A stretch of 64,000 nucleotides of DNA. Origin: Escherichia phage JES2013. A model generated the notes under the pieces. That model made no database searches and was not told the DNA's origin. It worked only from the letters and a program-made list of their open reading frames with translations. Shown piece after piece: positions 29,326-39,902 of this stretch; the stretch's first letter is position 1; each line of letters starts with the position of its first letter. The DNA is taken from sequence record KC690136; one strand, 5' to 3'. The translations under genes and the position numbers were made by a program.

Positions 29326-29402
29326 TGGTCTCCACGGAGTGATTCGAACACTCGACCTCCTGATCCCAAATCAGGCGCTCTACCAAGCTGAGCTACGCGG
29401 AG
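29326..29402 (-). tRNA. tRNA-Pro (anticodon UGG)
   Basis: Manual cloverleaf: acceptor CTCCGCG/CGTGGAG, D-arm GCTC/GAGC, anticodon loop TTTGGGA, T-arm GAGTG TTCGAAT CACTC, encoded CCA. Confidence 0.7.
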
Positions 29403-29413
29403 TATTCATTATT

Positions 29414-29488
29414 TGGTGGCCCTGGGTGGAATTGAACCACCGTCTGGCGATTATGAGTCGCTTGCTTGAACCTTCCAGCTACAGGGCC
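29414..29488 (-). tRNA. tRNA-Met (anticodon CAU; could be initiator, elongator or Ile2)
   Basis: Manual fold: acceptor GGCCCTG/CAGGGCC, anticodon loop CTCATAA, T-arm GGTGG TTCAATT CCACC, encoded CCA. Confidence 0.65.
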
Positions 29489-29489
29489 A

Positions 29490-29565
29490 TGGTGCTGATG
29501 GCAGGACTTGAACCTGCAACCTATTGATTACAAATCAATTGCACTACCAATTGTGCTACATCAGC
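29490..29565 (-). tRNA. tRNA-Thr (anticodon UGU)
   Basis: Manual fold: acceptor GCTGATG/CATCAGC, D-arm GCAC/GTGC, anticodon loop TTTGTAA, T-arm GCAGG TTCAAGT CCTGC, encoded CCA. Confidence 0.65.
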
Positions 29566-29570
29566 AAAAA

Positions 29571-29661
29571 GGTGCTAGGTGATGGAGTCGAACCACCCGA
29601 ATCGCAATGATAACAGATTTACAGTCTGCCCCGCTACCCCTACGGAATTAACTCACCTAAA
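29571..29661 (-). tRNA. tRNA-Tyr-like (anticodon GUA), atypical 5' half; 5' boundary uncertain
   Basis: Anticodon arm GCAGA CTGTAAA TCTGT identical in core to bacterial tRNA-Tyr; canonical T-arm GGTGG TTCGACT CCATC; long variable region; acceptor/D-arm pairing not resolved by hand. Confidence 0.45.
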
Positions 29662-29787
29662 TACTAATATTTAAATTCTTTTTAAAATAGCTAGTGTTCT
29701 CACCACTAACTATGAGGTATCGGTAAAGTGGTTACCGCCACTTGCCGAAGATTTACTCTGCTAAAGTAAGCTACATTAAAAAGAACT

Positions 29788-29862
29788 TGGCACCCCGTAC
29801 TGGACTCGAACCAGTGTCAACGGCTTAGAAGGCCGCTGCTTTATCCACTAAGCTAACAGGGC
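29788..29862 (-). tRNA. tRNA-Arg (anticodon UCU)
   Basis: Manual fold: acceptor GCCCTGT/ACGGGGT with G-U pairs, anticodon loop CTTCTAA, T-arm ACTGG TTCGAGT CCAGT, encoded CCA. Confidence 0.65.
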
Positions 29863-32780: not shown

Positions 32781-33335
32781 TTACTCCCCGCTGTCAATAG
32801 CAAAACTCATTGCAATACGGTATGCTTCTTCTAATGGTAAGAGTCTCCCCCACACATCCCAACCGACATCAAGCTGCCTGCCAAACAACTGTTGTGTGGT
32901 TCCGTGAGCATGACCGAACAGTTGGACTGATCCATGAGGCTTTCTGTTCCACTTTGCAAACTGGTAATGGCTCATACAGATCAAATTCTTGTTGTGGCGA
33001 AGCTCGTAATAATCTACAACCTCGTGATAGAACTCTTTCATAATTCTGACAGTCGTCCTTGTGTCATGGTTGCCACGAACAAGAATAATATGTCCGTTCA
33101 ACATATTTAGAATATCCGGGAGTAAGTTGTTGATATTCTTATCATTAGTGCACGCAATATCTCCCAAGTGGAACACAGTGTCTGCAGGTGACACAACAGA
33201 GTTCCACTCGGCGATGATTCCTGCATTCATACTGTCAAGATTGTGATCATACTGAGATCTGTGTTTTTGACATGAATCAAACTCCATGACCCGCTGGTGG
33301 AGAAAGTGTGTGTCGCTTGTTACAAAGTATTTCAT
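32781..33335 (-). CDS. metallophosphoesterase (calcineurin-like phosphatase)
   Basis: Motifs DxH (VTSDTHF), GDxxD-like (HLGDIA), GNHD (RGNHD), GHxH (FGHAHG); start trimmed to Met preceded by GAGGA RBS. Confidence 0.65.
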   Translation of the reverse strand: MKYFVTSDTHFLHQRVMEFDSCQKHRSQYDHNLDSMNAGIIAEWNSVVSPADTVFHLGDIACTNDKNINNLLPDILNMLNGHIILVRGNHDTRTTVRIMKEFYHEVVDYYELRHNKNLICMSHYQFAKWNRKPHGSVQLFGHAHGTTQQLFGRQLDVGWDVWGRLLPLEEAYRIAMSFAIDSGE

Positions 33336-33342
33336 ACATTCC

Positions 33343-33753
33343 TCATTTAAGTTTAATGCAGTTTTTAAGCTGGCGTTCCATACGATCCACAACCCTGTCT
33401 GGAACATCATGAATGCTTTTATTACCGTGGCGGTTTTCAACCACGATCACGGTATAACTATACCCATGACTGATTGCCATGTCAACATATTCCTGCACAT
33501 GTTTTTCTTTTGTAAACGTATTACTTACCACGATACGGTCGTATCCCATACGCATCATATCTTCTACGTTATCTTTGCACCATTTTGCTGCGAGTGTTAC
33601 TTTACTTGCATCCCAGTTGTAATTGCCGTCATCGTCATACCAGAACATGTCGTTCTCAAAATGTGGATACAGACCTTCTAAAGATAGCGCATTTGCCAGT
33701 GTTGATTTGCCAGACCCTGGCAGACCACGCACGATATATAGCATTTTAGACAT
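33343..33753 (-). CDS. P-loop kinase, polynucleotide kinase-like
   Basis: Walker A GLPGSGKST at N-terminus similar to T4 Pnk kinase domain (GCPGSGKST); start at Met after GGAGG RBS. Confidence 0.55.
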   Translation of the reverse strand: MSKMLYIVRGLPGSGKSTLANALSLEGLYPHFENDMFWYDDDGNYNWDASKVTLAAKWCKDNVEDMMRMGYDRIVVSNTFTKEKHVQEYVDMAISHGYSYTVIVVENRHGNKSIHDVPDRVVDRMERQLKNCIKLK

Positions 33754-33871
33754 AGCAATCCTCCGTTTTAATTTTAATGATAGTATACCTAACTGTTTTG
33801 TTAATTTCAAGTGTTGACACTAGGTTATTTGTGTGGCAGGATAGACTGACAAAATGACAAATGAGGAACGT

Positions 33872-34789
33872 ATGATGAAGTATTTTAATGCAGACGATCT
33901 AGTTGACAAAGGTCTTGTAACCAGCAGATATTACCCAGATCTTGGATTAAAGATTTATAAATATGCCAGAAAAGTATTTTACAACAATTTATGGCATTTG
34001 TCCCCTCGTTTGCTGGAGTGCCGAGGCATTGTTGTCGGTAATGAAGGAAATGTTGTGGCATGGCCCTTCACAAAAGTGTTTAACTTGGGAGAAAATCACA
34101 CCAACCTGCCTGACAATAAGCTTGTGACGGCGGTAGAGAAAAAGAACGGATTCCTCGGTGTGGTGTCATCTCATAAAGGTGAACTATTGTTCTCAACAAC
34201 CGGATCTCTTGATTCCCCATATTGTAACCTCGCAAAGGAAACCATCCGGGAGCAATGTGGTAATTTAGATCTTATCAAGAAGGTTATGGGCAATGAAAAC
34301 ATGACATTCATGTTTGAAATTTGTCACCCTTCAGATCCGCATATTGTTCAGGAAGATCATGGCGCATATTTGATAGGTTGCAGATATAATGATTCTGGAA
34401 TAATGCTACCAGAAGCAGCTTTAGATGGGATTGCCAAATACCTTGGCGCAAAACGTCCTCACACTGTGCGTGAAATTCCGTTCAGCTATGCAAAAGAATT
34501 GGCTGCAGAAACAAGAGGTGAAGGGTATATGATTCGTAAGCCTTACTACCCTTATGATCTGCAGCTGAAGATCAAGTCTCCATACTATCTGGCACGGAAG
34601 GCCGTAATGAGGGGTAAAGCTTGGAAGATTTGGGATGATGATATCTTTAAACGTGTTGACGAAGAGTTTTACGGCATGGTAAACTTCATTCGTAGCAATT
34701 ACACAGAAGATGTGTGGAACTGCCTACTGGAGCAGGAACGCAGGGAGATACTCGACCACTATTTCCACAACGAGGACTATATGCAATGA
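33872..34789 (+). CDS. putative RNA ligase (Rnl1/tRNA-ligase-like nucleotidyltransferase)
   Basis: Candidate ligase motifs: I KKNG (VEKKNGFLG), IV EGYMIRK, V LQLKIK; start chosen at ATG with GAGGA RBS (track ORF begins at 33854). Confidence 0.5.
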   Translation: MMKYFNADDLVDKGLVTSRYYPDLGLKIYKYARKVFYNNLWHLSPRLLECRGIVVGNEGNVVAWPFTKVFNLGENHTNLPDNKLVTAVEKKNGFLGVVSSHKGELLFSTTGSLDSPYCNLAKETIREQCGNLDLIKKVMGNENMTFMFEICHPSDPHIVQEDHGAYLIGCRYNDSGIMLPEAALDGIAKYLGAKRPHTVREIPFSYAKELAAETRGEGYMIRKPYYPYDLQLKIKSPYYLARKAVMRGKAWKIWDDDIFKRVDEEFYGMVNFIRSNYTEDVWNCLLEQERREILDHYFHNEDYMQ

Positions 34790-35136
34790 AGAAGTTGATT
34801 GTGTGGCTGGATGATTTGAGAGATCCGTCAAATTATGGACTCCCAGACGCTGTTTGGCTGAAGAATTCCTCCGAGTTTATGGATTTTATTAACGATAAGG
34901 GAAAGCTCTACAGACGCGTTTCTGAGTGGCATATGGACAACGACCTAGGAGAAGTATTCGAAGGATATGATTGCCTATCCATGTTGGAGGAAAAATTTGT
35001 ATTCGGTAAGCCTCCCGTGGTTGACAACGTGAAGATTTTCGTACATACTTCTAATCCATCAGCGGCTCGTAAATTCATGCTTGCAGCTGACTCGTTTAAA
35101 AAGTTTGGAATAGAGATTAAACAAAACATCTACTGA
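34786..35136 (+). CDS. hypothetical small alpha/beta protein (possible receiver-like fold), partner of Sir2 gene
   Basis: 116 aa; ATGA overlap with upstream ligase gene; LIVWLDD and VHTSNP segments; no confident family assignment. Confidence 0.35.
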   Translation: MKKLIVWLDDLRDPSNYGLPDAVWLKNSSEFMDFINDKGKLYRRVSEWHMDNDLGEVFEGYDCLSMLEEKFVFGKPPVVDNVKIFVHTSNPSAARKFMLAADSFKKFGIEIKQNIY

Positions 35137-35144
35137 GGACACTT

Positions 35145-35906
35145 ATGCGACGACTGATTATTATCTCCGGTGCTGGTTTGAGCGCTGAATCTGGTATTCC
35201 CACTTTCCGATCTGGTAGCACTGCAATGTGGGAGAATTTCAGCATCGATGAGGTGTGCAACATCCACACCTTTGCCAAGAACTACTATAAGGTGCATGAC
35301 TTTTACAATGCACGTCGCGTAGCTCTGGGCAGTGTTGATCCTAACCTTGCACATCTTCGGATCGCTGAGTGGTATTCCCGCTGGTCTGGTCGTGTGATCA
35401 ACCTTACCACCAATGTAGATGATTTGCTGGAGCGTGCTGGTGTAAAACATGAAGATATTTTACATGTCCACGGGTATTTGCCTGAAATCACCTACGAAGA
35501 TGCTGAAGGTAATGATGTAATTAAAAATATCGGATACACGGAGGTAGATACAGGCAAGTATACCTGGGTTAAGCCCAATGTAGTGTTCTTCGGTGAGGTT
35601 GCTCCTAAGTATACAGACATGTATGACCTGTTGACATCTCTCACAAGCAATGATATGGTGATCCTGGTAGGTTGTTCTAACACAGTTATTAATTTTAACT
35701 GGGAATTGTTTCCTGCTACTTGTAAAGGCACAAAACTGCTGATTGTAAACAAGTATGATTCGCAGAGTGCAGATGGAAGTGGCATTTCACGTAGCGACCT
35801 TTATCAATATGAGGATCGCGGGATCCCTGTATGGTTTAACGGTGCTGTTGACGCTTTCTCTGATAAAGTATTTATTGAAACTGTAGAAAACTTTATGGAA
35901 CTTTAA
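35145..35906 (+). CDS. Sir2-family (sirtuin-like) NAD-binding protein lacking zinc ribbon
   Basis: Motifs GAGLSAESGIPTFR, catalytic-His region HVHGYL, FFGE; no Cys4 zinc-ribbon between them. Confidence 0.7.
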   Translation: MRRLIIISGAGLSAESGIPTFRSGSTAMWENFSIDEVCNIHTFAKNYYKVHDFYNARRVALGSVDPNLAHLRIAEWYSRWSGRVINLTTNVDDLLERAGVKHEDILHVHGYLPEITYEDAEGNDVIKNIGYTEVDTGKYTWVKPNVVFFGEVAPKYTDMYDLLTSLTSNDMVILVGCSNTVINFNWELFPATCKGTKLLIVNKYDSQSADGSGISRSDLYQYEDRGIPVWFNGAVDAFSDKVFIETVENFMEL

Positions 35907-35919
35907 AAGGAGACCTTTA

Positions 35920-36633
35920 ATGCTGAATACTAAACTGATCGACAACCTGGAAAAACTGTCTCAGCCTGAAAACTACCTTTGGTCTGCCAACTGGGTGGAA
36001 AACTGGAACCGTGTGGCAGCTAAGGTGAAAAAATCATACACACCATTCGAATTACAGCTTAGCTTCATTGAGGAAGAGTTCAATGAAGTTTTGGAAGAGC
36101 TGGAGAAAGGTGATGGTGGAGATCACTTGCTAAAAGAGGCCTGCGATCTTCATGTTGTCACAAGTTATGCCGCTTATCTTGTTAATGACAATCACGAAAA
36201 GTGGTCAAACCTGTTTGATAATCCACGAGGTATTAAGTTCAAGATTGGTGAGTTCTATGATACACTGATCGCTGCGAAAAACACCTCTAAGCAAAGAGCG
36301 TCTGCTTACCGCTTAGCAGAGTTGTCAACAGCTTTGCTGTTCCAGCTTCGCGGCGATGTGTGCGGGATGATGCGTAAGGTTCTCAAATCGAATGACAGCA
36401 AGTTTGCACGGGTCAACCATCTACGGTATTCACACGGTGCCAGTGCAGATATGCCTGCTGAACAACTCATCGAGTTGGAGATTAAAGATCTTGAGCGACG
36501 CTTTGATGGTCGATATGAAGGTTTTGTTGCTAAGGAAGAATTCTACAACGGTAATAAAGTTATCATATTCCTTGACAGTAAAGGTAAGATCATGAAGCCT
36601 TCAAGCTTCAAGGATGTAACAGAGTATATTTAA
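35920..36633 (+). CDS. putative MazG-like nucleotide pyrophosphohydrolase domain protein
   Basis: 237 aa; acidic helix pattern FIEEEFNEVLEELEKGDGGDHLLKEACDL resembling all-alpha NTP pyrophosphatase metal-binding motif; AAAGGAGA RBS. Confidence 0.4.
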   Translation: MLNTKLIDNLEKLSQPENYLWSANWVENWNRVAAKVKKSYTPFELQLSFIEEEFNEVLEELEKGDGGDHLLKEACDLHVVTSYAAYLVNDNHEKWSNLFDNPRGIKFKIGEFYDTLIAAKNTSKQRASAYRLAELSTALLFQLRGDVCGMMRKVLKSNDSKFARVNHLRYSHGASADMPAEQLIELEIKDLERRFDGRYEGFVAKEEFYNGNKVIIFLDSKGKIMKPSSFKDVTEYI

Positions 36634-36666
36634 CAACATAGCCGGGATCACCCGGCTTTACTTGTT

Positions 36667-37005: not shown

Positions 37006-37261
37006 TCTTGCTAAACCTGTAGAAGCACACCAGTTTGACGGAAGCTCTTCATCAGTATCTGATCTGCAACGGTGGATTGATACAGGTGTGTTTACATCGT
37101 CACCTGTTCGGACCAGAGATCTTCGTCGTATGTGTGAGCTTGTAGAGCCGTTTGGTAACCTAGTCTTGTACCAGGGTGATTGGCTTGTTGATTTTATGGG
37201 GGACTGGTTGGTAATGAGTAAAGAAGAGATGTTTAAAATTTTTAAGGAAGAGGTAGAGTAA
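36992..37261 (+). CDS. hypothetical protein
   Basis: 89-aa ORF overlapping neighbours. Confidence 0.4.
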   Translation: MPLFNLAKPVEAHQFDGSSSSVSDLQRWIDTGVFTSSPVRTRDLRRMCELVEPFGNLVLYQGDWLVDFMGDWLVMSKEEMFKIFKEEVE

Positions 37262-38544
37262 TGCATCAAATCAAAACAACACTGTACGCACTGAACAAAG
37301 ATGGCAGCTACCAACAGTGGAAAGTATTCACGGATGGTGATAAGGTTATCGTAGAGTTTGGCAAGCTTGATGGTAAACTGCAATACAAAGAGACGATCTG
37401 CACACCTAAGAACGTAGGTCGTGCCAACGAGACTACAGCTGAGCAACAGGCCGAGCTTGAGGCTATCAGTAAGTGGGAAAAACAAGTCCGTCTGGGGTAT
37501 GTTGAAAACATGGAAGATTGCGAGCAGGGTGTTGACCTTTTACCCATGCTGGTGCATGACTATCTGAAGCGTGGCAAGGCACTTAAATTACCTTGCTGGA
37601 TCTTGCGTAAGTTAGATGGCCTTCGTCTGCTTGTTGTTTTCCAAAATGGTGAGCCTAAATTTATTTCCCGTGGTAATAAGTCCTACCCTATTCAAGGAAA
37701 GCTTTTAGAGCAACTTCGTTCTTTCCATTCTACCACTGGGATTAAACAACTTGATGGGGAACTATACATTCATGGTCTTCCTTTGCAGAAAATAGTGTCT
37801 CTTGCTAAACGGTGGCGCACACAGGAAGAGATTCAGGCCGAGATCGATAAAGACTATGAGGCAGATAAAAAACGCCGTCATGCCGCAATTAAGGCAGGCT
37901 TATCAACATACAAAAACTTCAACAAGGTAGATATTCCTGTCGATGTTGATCCTGTTCGTGATGATTTGCGTTACGGTGGGTACTGTAGCTACGATCTGGA
38001 GTATCACATTTTTGATATTCCTAGCGACAAGGTGTGGTGGGATCCAGAAACAGAGTCTGGACGCTGCAAGGATCTTATGGATGCAGAGGATACCGTTACC
38101 ACTCTGATGCTTGACCATATCAAGGTTGTTGACGCAGAGCTTGCGTACACAGTTGATCATTGCGAAGAATCTGTTGGTATATTCATGTCCGAAGGATATG
38201 AAGGTACCATTATGCGTAACTTCTGTGGTAAATATGAGTACGGTCAGCGAACATCTGAAGCATTGAAATGGAAAAAGTTCAACGACGCAGAGGTGAAAGT
38301 TATTGACGTTGAGAAAGATAAGAATGATGAAGGTGTTCTTATCTGTGTTGACAAGGAAGGTATTGTTGTTAAAATGAAGATGAAAGGTACGCACGAGGAG
38401 CGTAGCTATGACAGAATGCAGGAAATGATCGGCAAGTTTGTCACCTTCAAATATCAAGCAAGGACAGAAGACAACAACTACCAATTCCCTGTCGGTATCT
38501 GCGTCCGAAATGTTAACCCAGACACTTGGGAGGTGCTGGAATAA
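37261..38544 (+). CDS. ATP-dependent DNA ligase
   Basis: Motif I RKLDGLR (KxDGxR), motif III LDGELYIHG, motif IV EGTIMR, motif V LKWKKF, C-terminal OB-like region; extra N-terminal ~80-aa domain. Confidence 0.7.
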   Translation: MHQIKTTLYALNKDGSYQQWKVFTDGDKVIVEFGKLDGKLQYKETICTPKNVGRANETTAEQQAELEAISKWEKQVRLGYVENMEDCEQGVDLLPMLVHDYLKRGKALKLPCWILRKLDGLRLLVVFQNGEPKFISRGNKSYPIQGKLLEQLRSFHSTTGIKQLDGELYIHGLPLQKIVSLAKRWRTQEEIQAEIDKDYEADKKRRHAAIKAGLSTYKNFNKVDIPVDVDPVRDDLRYGGYCSYDLEYHIFDIPSDKVWWDPETESGRCKDLMDAEDTVTTLMLDHIKVVDAELAYTVDHCEESVGIFMSEGYEGTIMRNFCGKYEYGQRTSEALKWKKFNDAEVKVIDVEKDKNDEGVLICVDKEGIVVKMKMKGTHEERSYDRMQEMIGKFVTFKYQARTEDNNYQFPVGICVRNVNPDTWEVLE

Positions 38545-39220: not shown

Positions 39221-39427
39221 ATGAAAGATTTTCTGTTGGCAATTTTGTTCATGGCCGCATGTCTGGCCTGTGGTGTCGTGTTTGCAGGTGAAACAGCGTA
39301 TCTTGTCGATGTATACCGGGACAATGGTAAACGTATTTGCCTTTATGAGACAAGCCAAGGTGAGCTCTACGAGCTTGTGAAACAAGGTGAGGCAGGTTCC
39401 TGCCCTCGCACCCATTTCTTTGAATGA
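39221..39427 (+). CDS. small secreted/lipoprotein-like protein
   Basis: 68 aa; hydrophobic N-terminus LAILFMAACLACGVVFA with lipobox-like Cys; GGAGGG RBS. Confidence 0.45.
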   Translation: MKDFLLAILFMAACLACGVVFAGETAYLVDVYRDNGKRICLYETSQGELYELVKQGEAGSCPRTHFFE

Positions 39428-39434
39428 GGGAGAA

Positions 39435-39902
39435 CACGTGGAAGACGGACGTTTAATGAAGTCTGAACGCAGGCTTATTGTGCAACTGATCCCAGAAACA
39501 GCTTGGTATAATAACCTCCGAAACGCTGTGAAGAAGGGTGAGTGGGATAAGATCCGCAAGAAGTGCTATAGAGAAGCCAACTACACCTGTGAGGTGTGCG
39601 GCGGTAAAGGCAGCAAACACCCAGTGGAGTGTCATGAACTTTACACTTTCGAAGAGGGAGTGATCCGGCTTGTCGGACTGATAGCGTTGTGCCCAGATTG
39701 TCACACATCGGTGCATCCTGGGTTAGCAAATATCCGTGGAAAGTATGCTCAGGCAGTTAATCAGTTGGCTAAGGTGAATAAGATCACCAAAGGTATGGCA
39801 GAGGCGTATTACCGAGACTGCTTTGCAGAGTGGCGTGAGCTTAGTAAAGTTCCAGAATGGAAGACTGACTTTTCGTGGATAGAGGGTTACCTTGATGGCT
39901 AA
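39435..39902 (+). CDS. HNH endonuclease (free-standing)
   Basis: CEVCGGKGS...HPVECHELY...CPDCHTSVH zinc-finger/His-Me pattern; start at GTG 39435 with AGGGAG RBS (alternative ATG 39456). Confidence 0.6.
   Translation, partial: HVEDGRLMKSERRLIVQLIPETAWYNNLRNAVKKGEWDKIRKKCYREANYTCEVCGGKGSKHPVECHELYTFEEGVIRLVGLIALCPDCHTSVHPGLANIRGKYAQAVNQLAKVNKITKGMAEAYYRDCFAEWRELSKVPEWKTDFSWIEGYLDG

What the first reader, a model, noticed from the sequence alone, without database searches (positions are those of the whole stretch)
34786..35906. Phage-encoded Sir2-like protein without the zinc ribbon, coupled to a small upstream partner gene
ORF 35145..35906 has the sirtuin NAD-binding signature GAGLSAESGIPTFR, the catalytic His region (HVHGYL) and FFGE, but no Cys4 zinc ribbon between them; this resembles NADase/ADP-ribosyltransferase-type SIR2 domains more than deacetylases. 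It is preceded by a 116-aa ORF that overlaps the ligase gene stop (ATGA). SIR2 domains are established NAD-depleting effectors of bacterial defense systems (Thoeris ThsA, DSR), and NAD-dependent 2'-phosphotransferases act in tRNA ligation pathways. Whether this protein is an anti-defense NAD-metabolising enzyme or part of the adjacent RNA-repair pathway is open; the gene pair is not something I can place in a described phage module.
Basis: partly seen in the sequence, partly recalled or inferred. Interest (0 to 1): 0.75.

Follow-up and report, generated by a model that had tools for sequence, protein, structure and literature searches.

The report
Phage sirtuin and receiver-fold RNA-repair genes
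The two genes are real: a zinc-less sirtuin and a small receiver-fold protein in an rV5-type phage RNA-ligase operon. A 2022 comparative-genomics paper already described this module and predicted an NAD-dependent RNA-repair role, and I found no experimental test of it.

Summary
ORF 34786..35136 (116 aa) starts in an ATGA overlap with the RNA-ligase stop. ORF 35145..35906 (253 aa) is a sirtuin with every NAD-cleavage residue and no Cys or His zinc ligand.

- The small ORF is a cREC domain (Pfam PF20274), and its model has a response-regulator receiver fold.
- The sirtuin is closest to class III deacylases (CobB, SIRT5, Sir2Af1), not to defence NADases; it has no PADLOC hit.
- The zinc module survives as a three-stranded fold. 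Distant phage relatives of similar length (47-58 vs 43-45 residues) still carry CxxC...CxxC.
- The pair belongs to an operon: Rnl1-like ligase, cREC, sirtuin, MazG-like protein. A kinase and a metallophosphoesterase are transcribed divergently.

The window is 100% identical to E. coli O157 typing phage 4, an rV5-like phage. Iyer et al. 2022 (PMC9503650) named this neighbourhood, with "phage V5" as prototype, and proposed that the sirtuin acts like Tpt1/KptA. I found no experimental test.

New here:
- loss of the zinc ligands together with a Q-to-T change in the TQNID motif;
- cREC and HAD_SAK never occur together near the sirtuin;
- the repair block often sits beside NARP1 NAD-reconstitution genes;
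- most sirtuin-bearing phages lack this ligase, which weakens the model.

The parts
34786..35136 (+). cREC protein (116 aa): stand-alone receiver-fold domain, predicted Asp-based phosphoesterase.
35145..35906 (+). Zinc-less sirtuin (253 aa), derived from the class III type.
   Evidence: Pfam SIR2 E=7e-28. The best PDB sequence hit is CobB 1s5p, E=3e-21. The AF2 model has pLDDT 89.5. Foldseek gives CobB with a target-normalised TM-score of 0.83, then Sir2Af1 and SIRT5. Invariant residues across 40 homologs: G9 A10 G11, F21 R22, Y54, R57 R58, N90, D92, H109, F148 F149, E151. No Cys or His ligand lies in residues 110-147.
33854..34789 (+). Rnl1-like RNA ligase (311 aa; GenBank starts it at 33875). 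First gene of the operon.
   Evidence: Pfam RNA_lig_T4_1 E=6.9e-15 and phrog_562 E=2.7e-66. NCBIfam T4 RnlA family E=5.8e-10, well below its cutoff. Its stop overlaps the cREC start in ATGA.
35920..36633 (+). MazG-like nucleotide pyrophosphohydrolase candidate (237 aa). Last gene of the operon.
   Evidence: phrog_671 E=5e-22. No Pfam, NCBIfam or PDB sequence hit. Homologs recur downstream of the block in other phage lineages. Iyer et al. 2022 list a MazG protein in this neighbourhood.
36640..36657 (.). GC-rich hairpin (7 pairs, 6 of them GC), read as terminator-like on both strands, 7 nt after the MazG-like stop.
   Evidence: The T-run is weak, so this is a consensus match only.
33343..33753 (-). 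P-loop kinase (polynucleotide-kinase-like), transcribed divergently.
   Evidence: Pfam AAA_33 E=8e-11; phrog_2071 E=1.8e-57; phrog_505 'polynucleotide kinase' E=8e-10. Homologs lie next to the ligase in Mydo-like, phi92-like, Pseudomonas, Vibrio and Acinetobacter phages.
32781..33335 (-). Calcineurin-like metallophosphoesterase.
   Evidence: Pfam Metallophos E=1e-6 and phrog_547 E=2e-52. PDB 1xm7 E=3e-11. Syntenic with the ligase and kinase in many lineages.
37261..38544 (+). ATP-dependent DNA ligase. It travels with the block, but whether it belongs to the function is uncertain.
   Evidence: Pfam DNA_ligase_A_M plus OB domain; phrog_114 E=2.7e-83. In Mydo-like loci its start shares a coordinate with the sirtuin stop.

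Best explanation
The pair is the cREC and sirtuin part of a four-gene operon: Rnl1-like RNA ligase, cREC, sirtuin, MazG-like protein. A polynucleotide-kinase-like kinase and a metallophosphoesterase are transcribed divergently next to it. Together these form the rV5-type 'sirtuin-centred RNA-repair' neighbourhood already described by Iyer et al. 2022.

Most likely mechanism (inferred, not shown): a host metal-independent RNase, such as an anticodon nuclease, breaks tRNA and leaves 2',3'-cyclic-phosphate and 5'-OH ends. cREC or the metallophosphoesterase opens or clears the cyclic phosphate, the kinase phosphorylates the 5' end, and the ligase seals the break. The sirtuin then uses NAD+ to remove a residual 2'-phosphate by Tpt1-like chemistry. 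[quoted passage not shown]

Shown here: the identities, folds, conserved catalytic residues, operon layout and recurrent gene contexts. Inferred: every substrate and every reaction step.
For: - Operon layout: ATGA overlap, 8-nt and 13-nt spacers with Shine-Dalgarno sequences, and a hairpin after the fourth gene.
- The sirtuin keeps the full nicotinamide-cleavage set (GAG, F21 R22, N90, D92, H109, FGE), invariant across homologs that share 50-93% identity with the window protein. It is therefore probably an active NAD+ consumer.
- Three unrelated genome architectures place the zinc-less sirtuin beside RNA-end or ADP-ribose-processing enzymes. rV5-like and Mydo-like phages have ligase, kinase, phosphoesterase and cREC. 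T5-like phages have HAD_SAK_2, the 'Swiss Army Knife RNA repair' phosphatase domain (28 loci by clustering; 29 loci by HMM). Jumbo phages have 2H, Nudix and cREC.
- 48 of 64 zinc-less loci have such a neighbour within 8 kb; 0 of 16 Cys4-relative loci do.
- cREC and HAD_SAK never co-occur near the sirtuin, as expected for analogous partners.
- The same phage encodes a Macro protein homologous (E=1.6e-19) to the Macro 'phosphatase' found in NARP1 operons. One member of that group, from Vibrio phage Gary, is an experimentally shown ADP-ribose-1''-phosphate phosphatase, Poa1p-like (bioRxiv 10.64898/2026.01.28.702374). Poa1p is the last enzyme of the yeast Tpt1 by-product pathway.
- Four tRNA genes lie 4 kb upstream.
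- Iyer et al. 2022 reached the same proposal independently.
- From established knowledge: sirtuin and Tpt1 chemistry are formally parallel. In both, an oxygen nucleophile attacks C1'' and the 2''-OH then attacks to give a 1'',2''-cyclic species.
Against: - No experiment on any member was found.
- The sirtuin is closest to true protein deacylases. It keeps the class III acyl-pocket pair Y54/R57, the FYNARR motif identical to CobB's.
- No clade-specific basic residues were seen that would suggest an RNA-binding surface.
- The association is not obligatory. 1009 phage records carry the sirtuin and 758 carry this ligase. Salmonella phages score 289 versus 14, and the 177 Pseudomonas phage records with the ligase come from a host genus absent from the listed sirtuin hosts.
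- Pakpunavirus, Thalassavirus and Saclayvirus have the ligase-kinase-phosphoesterase triad with no sirtuin or annotated 2'-phosphotransferase nearby. The ligation pathway itself therefore does not need this step.
- The metallophosphoesterase could clear the cyclic phosphate alone, as T4 Pnkp does.
- The synteny among rV5-, Mydo- and phi92-like myoviruses may be inherited gene order rather than functional coupling.
- In phi92-like phages the sirtuin lies about 32 kb from the block.
Confidence: 0.45

Rival explanations
1. The sirtuin is a genuine CobB/SIRT5-like protein lysine deacylase (deacetylase or desuccinylase). It would remodel host or phage protein acylation during infection. Its position beside the RNA-repair genes would then reflect inherited gene order or regulation of those enzymes.
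For: The best sequence and fold matches are class III deacylases: CobB E=3e-21 with a target-normalised TM-score of 0.83, then SIRT5 and Sir2Af1. NCBIfam hits only CobB-type models. The acyl-pocket residues Y54/R57, F21, H109 and F148 are invariant. The small-domain fold is kept. Cys4 relatives sit beside GNAT acetyltransferases.
Against: All four zinc ligands are lost; from general knowledge, zinc is structurally required in characterised deacylase sirtuins. The TQNID Gln is replaced by Thr in 61 of 65 zinc-less members but in none of the Cys4 relatives or CobB. The GTSxxVxP substrate-loop motif is changed to GCSNTVINF. NCBIfam scores are far below the equivalog cutoffs, 122.6 versus 243 bits. 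RNA-end or ADP-ribose-processing neighbours recur in three unrelated architectures and only for the zinc-less clade.
Confidence: 0.25
2. The pair belongs to an NAD+/ADP-ribose-centred counter-defence island rather than to RNA repair. cREC, the MazG-like protein and the phosphoesterase would convert NAD-derived products into usable ADP-ribose or harmless nucleotides. Such products include ADP-ribose cyclic phosphate, ADP-ribose-1''-phosphate and immune signals. The sirtuin would act on an NAD-derived small molecule.
For: Prs-like/NamPT-like gene pairs lie directly beside the block in Mydo-like loci, in L043/L044/L051, in phi92-like loci and in Pakpunavirus and Thalassavirus phages; the Acinetobacter phage region shows only a Prs-like gene, and jumbo phages only a NamPT-like gene. 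Such pairs are the NARP1 enzymes Adps and Namat. Recent work shows that genes inserted in NARP1 operons feed it: Adpp and RyDEP. ADP-ribose cyclic phosphate arises spontaneously from the NARP1 intermediate, which gives cREC a possible substrate. In jumbo phages the sirtuin is flanked by an Acb1-like 2H enzyme and a Nudix.
Against: No Prs or NamPT homolog was found in the 132 of 141.7 kb of this phage's genome that I searched, yet it keeps cREC and the sirtuin. A sirtuin consumes NAD+, which works against NAD+ restoration. cREC is translationally coupled to the RNA ligase. No described anti-defence family matches.
Confidence: 0.15
3. The sirtuin is an ADP-ribosyltransferase. It would mark RNA ends (for example by capping a 5'- or 3'-phosphate) or a host protein, rather than removing a 2'-phosphate.
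For: Some sirtuins are ADP-ribosyltransferases, and Tpt1 itself caps 5'-phosphate ends (established knowledge). The catalytic set is intact. ADP-ribose-processing enzymes are nearby or elsewhere in the genome: the MazG-like protein, cREC and a Macro protein.
Against: There is no adjacent Macro partner of the SirTM type. There is no similarity to SirTM or defence SIR2 domains. The catalytic His typical of deacylase-type chemistry is retained.
Confidence: 0.1
4. The sirtuin is a plain NADase effector, for example for superinfection exclusion or host shut-off, like ThsA or DSR.
For: It lacks zinc ligands, as defence SIR2 domains do.
Against: It has no PADLOC hit. No defence SIR2 appears among the 50 Foldseek hits listed. 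It has no sensor or partner domain. It is conserved as a core gene in about 1000 mostly virulent phage genomes. Related phages encode NAD+-rebuilding genes next to it.
Confidence: 0.03

Closest known systems
Phage 'sirtuin-centred RNA-repair' neighbourhood, type 2 (prototypes Escherichia phage V5 and Proteus phage Mydo); Iyer, Burroughs, Anantharaman & Aravind 2022, Viruses 14:1977
   Same: The gene set is the same: sirtuin, T4-like tRNA ligase, cREC, nucleotide kinase, MazG and calcineurin-like phosphoesterase. The window is an rV5-like Vequintavirus, 100% identical to KP869102.
   Different: Nothing essential differs; this is that system. The paper is computational only. In the passages I retrieved it does not mention the loss of zinc ligands, the Q-to-T change, the mutual exclusion of HAD_SAK and cREC, or the NARP1 adjacency.
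E. coli CobB / human SIRT5 / Sir2Af1 (class III sirtuin deacylases)
   Same: Same fold (target-normalised TM-score about 0.83 to CobB). Same NAD-binding and catalytic residues. The FYNARR acyl-pocket motif is identical, and the small-domain topology is the same.
   Different: There are no zinc ligands. TQNID is changed to TTNVD and GTSxxVxP to GCSNTVINF. Scores are far below the CobB equivalog cutoffs. The gene context is RNA-end and ADP-ribose processing rather than acyl-CoA metabolism.
Tpt1/KptA RNA 2'-phosphotransferase with Cpd1 and Poa1p (yeast tRNA-splicing by-product pathway)
   Same: This is the proposed functional analogy. An NAD+-consuming enzyme sits next to an RNA ligase and kinase. 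A candidate cyclic phosphodiesterase (cREC) is present. A Poa1p-like Macro protein is encoded in the same genome.
   Different: There is no homology: Tpt1 has an ADP-ribosyltransferase fold, Cpd1 is a 2H enzyme, and cREC has a receiver fold. The activity is untested. The ligase is T4 Rnl1-like, and nothing shows that it needs a 2'-phosphate.
T4 Pnkp + Rnl1 tRNA repair, which counters the PrrC anticodon nuclease
   Same: Rnl1-family ligase plus a 5' kinase plus a 3'-end phosphoesterase; phage-encoded; tRNA genes nearby.
   Different: Kinase and phosphatase are separate proteins here. The phosphatase is calcineurin-like rather than HAD. The module has the extra NAD+-linked genes (sirtuin, cREC, MazG-like), which T4 lacks.
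Defence SIR2 NADases (Thoeris ThsA, DSR1/2, SIR2-HerA, SPARSA)
   Same: SIR2 superfamily; no zinc ribbon.
   Different: No sequence-profile match. None appears among the 50 Foldseek hits listed. There is no sensor domain, and the gene is carried by the phage, not the host.

Membership tests
SIR2/sirtuin superfamily (Pfam PF02146) | Rossmann fold with the GAGxS, TQNxD-type and HG motifs, above the Pfam gathering score. | tested here: met
   98.2 bits against a cutoff of 24, E=7e-28. The fold is confirmed by AF2 and Foldseek.
Canonical deacylase sirtuins (CobB equivalog) | Cys4, or Cys-rich, zinc-binding module between the catalytic His and FGE. | tested here: not met
   Residues 110-147 hold no Cys or His. 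175 of 200 homologs have 0 or 1 Cys there. The fold of the module is retained.
Canonical deacylase sirtuins (CobB equivalog) | Score above the NCBIfam equivalog or subfamily cutoff. | tested here: not met
   The best score is 122.6 bits against a cutoff of 243; prot_deacyl_CobB gives 104 against 320.
Canonical deacylase sirtuins (CobB equivalog) | NAD+-dependent removal of acyl groups from lysine. | not testable with these tools
   This needs an enzyme assay. The catalytic His109 and the class III pair Y54/R57 are conserved.
Phage RNA-repair-associated sirtuin clade (Iyer et al. 2022) | Phage-encoded sirtuin in a neighbourhood with a T4-like RNA ligase, cREC, kinase, MazG and calcineurin-like phosphoesterase, or with HAD_SAK, or with 2H, Nudix and cREC; no adjacent Macro. 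| tested here: met
   All the type-2 partners are present within 3.2 kb. The phage type is the named prototype. The other two architectures were reproduced in related loci.
cREC domain (Pfam PF20274) | Receiver-like fold with conserved acidic pocket residues, and no histidine-kinase partner. | tested here: met
cREC domain (Pfam PF20274) | Cyclic-phosphate phosphodiesterase activity. | not testable with these tools
   The activity is predicted only. No solved structure is detectable by sequence and no experimental paper was found.
Tpt1/KptA RNA 2'-phosphotransferase (Pfam PF01885) | Homology to the ADP-ribosyltransferase-fold Tpt1 family with the R-H-R-R catalytic tetrad. | tested here: not met
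   The only Pfam match is SIR2. The proposal is functional analogy, not membership.
Defence SIR2 NADases (ThsA, DSR, SIR2-HerA, pAgo-associated) | Match to a defence-system SIR2 profile, and a sensor or partner domain. | tested here: not met
   0 PADLOC families at E<=0.01. The protein is a single 253-aa domain. None appears among the 50 Foldseek hits listed.

The most novel reading that the evidence does not exclude
The zinc-less phage sirtuin acts on RNA as a non-homologous replacement for Tpt1. cREC is a catalytic receiver-fold cyclic phosphodiesterase, standing in for Cpd1. With the Poa1p-like Macro protein encoded elsewhere in the genome, the phage would rebuild the eukaryotic tRNA-splicing by-product pathway from unrelated folds. 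Loss of the zinc ligands and the Q-to-T change would mark the switch from protein to RNA substrates. In related phages the released nicotinamide and ADP-ribose would be recycled to NAD+ by the adjacent NARP1 genes.
Probability: 0.3. Interest if true: 0.75.

Novelty: already known. Interest (0 to 1): 0.35.

Why it matters
If the published prediction is right, this would be the first sirtuin with a nucleic-acid substrate and the first enzymatic role for a receiver-fold domain outside two-component signalling. It would also add an NAD+-dependent step to phage tRNA repair against host anticodon nucleases.

The clade occurs in about 1000 sequenced phages, including T5-like and rV5-like phages used in therapy and as model collections, so a real function would be widely relevant. 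The adjacency to NARP1 genes links two active topics, RNA repair and the contest over NAD+.

As a genome-scan finding, however, it is a re-discovery of a described but untested module in a published phage.

Tried and rejected
- PDB sequence searches gave nothing useful for the ligase, the MazG-like protein or the cREC profile.
- Neighbours of five distant cREC loci (L092-L096) gave almost no Pfam hits, only one MazG, so they neither support nor weaken a role.
- PHROG scans of unknown neighbours of the sirtuin in T5-like, phi92-like and jumbo loci returned mostly 'unknown function'.
- Literature searches for experimental work on phage sirtuins or cREC found none. The BASEL paper's 'deacetylase' hits refer to tail fibres.
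- The NADase/defence reading was rejected on the PADLOC and fold evidence.
- A strict two-gene 'pair' was rejected because cREC and the sirtuin are separated by a kinase gene in Mydo-like phages, lie about 32 kb apart in phi92-like phages, and cREC is replaced by HAD_SAK in T5-like phages.
- I could not analyse the pocket or surface charge of the models because coordinates are not exposed.
- The locus counts are not dereplicated or corrected for relatedness.
Full report
**Observation**

- The 116-aa ORF begins at ATG 34786 inside an ATGA that also holds the stop of the upstream 311-aa ORF. A GAGGA precedes it.
- The 253-aa ORF runs from 35145 to 35906. Its GAGGA overlaps the upstream stop, leaving an 8-nt spacer.
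- A fourth ORF (35920..36633) follows after 13 nt with an AAGGAG. A GC-rich hairpin lies 7 nt after its stop.
- The motifs GAGLSAESGIPTFR, HVHGYL and FFGE are present. No Cys lies between the last two.

The window is 100% identical to E. coli O157 typing phage 4 (KP869102, Vequintavirus, rV5-like). That record annotates these genes as [quoted passage not shown].

**What the genes are**

Profile searches give the following:

| Gene (window coordinates) | Best matches |
|---|---|
| Upstream ORF 33854..34789 | RNA_lig_T4_1, E=7e-15; phrog_562, E=3e-66 |
| Small ORF 34786..35136 | Pfam cREC_REC, "cyclic-phosphate processing receiver domain", E=1.5e-14 |
| Sirtuin 35145..35906 | Pfam SIR2, E=7e-28; phrog_2162, E=2e-108 |
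| Downstream ORF 35920..36633 | phrog_671, nucleotide pyrophosphohydrolase, E=5e-22 |
| Divergent ORF 33343..33753 (-) | P-loop kinase with polynucleotide-kinase similarity |
| Divergent ORF 32781..33335 (-) | calcineurin-like metallophosphoesterase |

An ATP-dependent DNA ligase follows at 37261. Four tRNA genes lie at 29326..29862.

**The sirtuin**

- Its best solved relatives by sequence are CobB (E=3e-21), SIRT5 and Sir2Af1, all class III sirtuins.
- An AF2 model built on 40 homologs is confident (pLDDT 89.5).
- Its best Foldseek matches are again CobB (target-normalised TM-score 0.83), Sir2Af1 and SIRT5. No defence SIR2 or SirTM appears among the 50 hits listed.
- PADLOC gives no hit. NCBIfam gives only CobB-type models, far below their cutoffs.
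- Across homologs that share 50-93% identity with the window protein, the NAD-cleavage set is invariant: G9 A10 G11, F21 R22, N90, D92, H109, F148 F149 and E151. So are Y54 and R57 in an FYNARR motif identical to CobB's. These align with the SIRT5 FYHYRR pair that binds acidic acyl groups (the role of that pair comes from established knowledge).

**The zinc module**

Residues 110-147 are modelled with block-mean pLDDT 93-95 as three strands. This is the topology of the sirtuin zinc module, but without any ligand.

Of 200 phage homologs, 175 have 0 or 1 Cys in this segment. More distant phage relatives (about 40% identity) carry CxxC...CxxC in a segment of similar length (47-58 vs 43-45 residues), and most share the W-[DN]-[IV]-G-[YF] motif. 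The zinc-less state is therefore a degenerate ribbon, not a deletion.

It coincides with a Gln-to-Thr change in TQNID. Thr is found in 61 of 65 zinc-less members. Gln is found in all 9 Cys4 relatives and in CobB.

**The small protein**

Conserved residues sit where receiver and HAD-type phosphoryl-transfer residues sit: D9 D10 after strand 1, D51/D53 after strand 3, and T88/S89 after strand 4. No member has a solved structure detectable by sequence.

**Context elsewhere**

The sirtuin clade is in 1009 phage records, cREC in 346 and this ligase family in 758.

In 80 IMG/VR loci I found these architectures:
- **rV5-like:** the layout seen in this window.
- **Mydo-like:** phosphoesterase, ligase, cREC, kinase, sirtuin, DNA ligase, then MazG. 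The ligase-to-cREC overlap is kept in most of these loci.
- **phi92-like:** cREC, phosphoesterase, (ligase, kinase), DNA ligase, MazG, with the sirtuin about 32 kb away.
- **T5-like:** the sirtuin with a HAD_SAK_2 "Swiss Army Knife RNA repair" phosphatase one to three genes downstream and no ligase (28 loci by clustering; 29 loci by HMM).
- **Jumbo phages:** 2H (Acb1-like), sirtuin, one unknown gene, Nudix, cREC.

48 of 64 zinc-less loci have an RNA-end or ADP-ribose-processing gene within 8 kb, against 0 of 16 Cys4-relative loci. The Cys4 relatives instead neighbour GNAT, nitroreductase and YkuD genes. HAD_SAK and cREC never co-occur near the sirtuin. These counts are not corrected for relatedness.

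**Prior description**

Iyer, Burroughs, Anantharaman and Aravind (Viruses 2022, PMC9503650, section 3.7.3) describe exactly these three neighbourhood types. They name "Escherichia phage V5 and Proteus phage Mydo" as prototypes of the ligase + cREC + kinase + MazG + calcineurin-like type. They propose that the sirtuin removes 2'-phosphates like KptA/Tpt1, and that cREC and its partners either open the cyclic phosphate or process ADP-ribose>P.

cREC was named in Iyer et al. 2021 (PMC7824862). I found no experimental work on either protein.

**Additional context found here**

The ligase-kinase-phosphoesterase triad, with or without the sirtuin, repeatedly sits beside Prs-like/NamPT-like gene pairs. 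This holds in Pakpunavirus MAG1 and Vibrio phage Pontus. It also holds in Mydo-like loci, in L043/L044/L051 and in phi92-like loci. In Acinetobacter phage Liucustia the fetched region shows only a Prs-like gene. In the jumbo-phage loci only a NamPT-like gene was found. Such pairs are the NARP1 NAD+-reconstitution enzymes Adps and Namat (Osterman et al.).

For this phage I searched the 64-kb window and two further stretches of the record, 132 of 141.7 kb in all, and found no Prs or NamPT homolog. It does encode a Macro protein (KP869102 136910..137368, outside the window). That protein is homologous (E=1.6e-19) to the Macro "phosphatase" of NARP1 operons. [quoted passage not shown]

**Mechanism**

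The best-supported reading is the published one: an NAD+-dependent, Tpt1-like 2'-phosphate removal embedded in a heal-and-seal tRNA repair module, followed by clean-up of ADP-ribose cyclic phosphate. The chemistry is plausible because the sirtuin and Tpt1 reactions are formally parallel.

The evidence against it is substantial.
- The protein looks most like a deacylase.
- The association between sirtuin and ligase is far from obligatory. Salmonella phages have 289 sirtuin records against 14 ligase records. The 177 Pseudomonas phage records with the ligase come from a host genus absent from the listed sirtuin hosts.
- Phages with the same triad manage without the sirtuin.
- Much of the synteny could be inherited gene order.

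I give the Tpt1-like model 0.45, a true deacylase 0.25, an NAD/ADP-ribose counter-defence role 0.15, ADP-ribosyl transfer 0.10 and a plain NADase 0.03.

**Verdict**

The module is already described in print for this very phage type, and it remains untested. Its value now lies in the experiment, not in the discovery.

Noticed in passing
window 29326-29862 (- strand): A cluster of four tRNA genes, Pro(UGG), Met(CAU), Thr(UGU) and Arg(UCU), lies about 4 kb upstream of the RNA-repair block.
   Followed up: partly
L098 (Pseudomonas phage MAG1), L099 (Vibrio phage Pontus), L100 (Acinetobacter phage Liucustia); also L022, L043, L089: The Rnl1-like ligase, kinase and phosphoesterase triad sits directly beside Prs-like/NamPT-like gene pairs (the NARP1 enzymes Adps and Namat, sometimes with a Macro 'phosphatase') in MAG1, Pontus and the Mydo-like, L043-type and phi92-like loci; Liucustia's fetched region shows only a Prs-like gene. 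The NARP1 papers I read do not mention this adjacency.
   Followed up: partly
KP869102.1 136910-137368 (outside the window; L102 13911-14369, - strand): The same phage encodes a Macro-domain protein homologous (E=1.6e-19 and 4e-16) to the Macro 'phosphatase' genes in the NARP1 operons of MAG1 and Pontus. No Prs or NamPT homolog was found in the 132 of 141.7 kb of the genome that I searched.
   Followed up: partly
L066-L074, genes 1-3 upstream of the sirtuin: Distant phage sirtuins that still carry the Cys4 zinc ribbon lie next to large GNAT acetyltransferase-domain proteins, which suggests a true acetylation/deacetylation pair in that clade.
   Followed up: partly
L022, L025, L030, L057 (Mydo-like loci), about 8777: The sirtuin stop and the ATP-dependent DNA ligase start share a coordinate, a 1-nt overlap that suggests translational coupling of the sirtuin to the DNA ligase.
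   Followed up: no
phage records MG0656xx: About 18-25 records named 'Campylobacter phage', with host given as C. jejuni, are 96-99.7% identical to this E. coli rV5-like region. This looks like a host mislabel or contamination in those deposits.
   Followed up: no
window 36640-36657: A perfect 7-bp GC-rich hairpin (AGCCGGG/CCCGGCT) lies just after the MazG-like gene. It scores as terminator-like on both strands but has a weak T-run.
   Followed up: no
window 39387-39902 (+): A 171-aa ORF has CxxC ... H ... CxxC spacing (CEVCGGKG...CPDCHTSVH), which resembles an HNH or zinc-finger nuclease. It lies downstream of the lysozyme gene.
   Followed up: no
L002-L021 (T5-like loci) and L076: PhoH-like ATPase and anaerobic ribonucleotide reductase genes lie upstream of the sirtuin in T5-like phages. 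A PIN-PhoH fusion follows the sirtuin, Nudix and cREC genes in a jumbo phage.
   Followed up: no
window 33854 vs 33875: The ligase start is ambiguous. The longest ORF starts at ATG 33854, while GenBank starts it 21 nt downstream at 33875.
   Followed up: no
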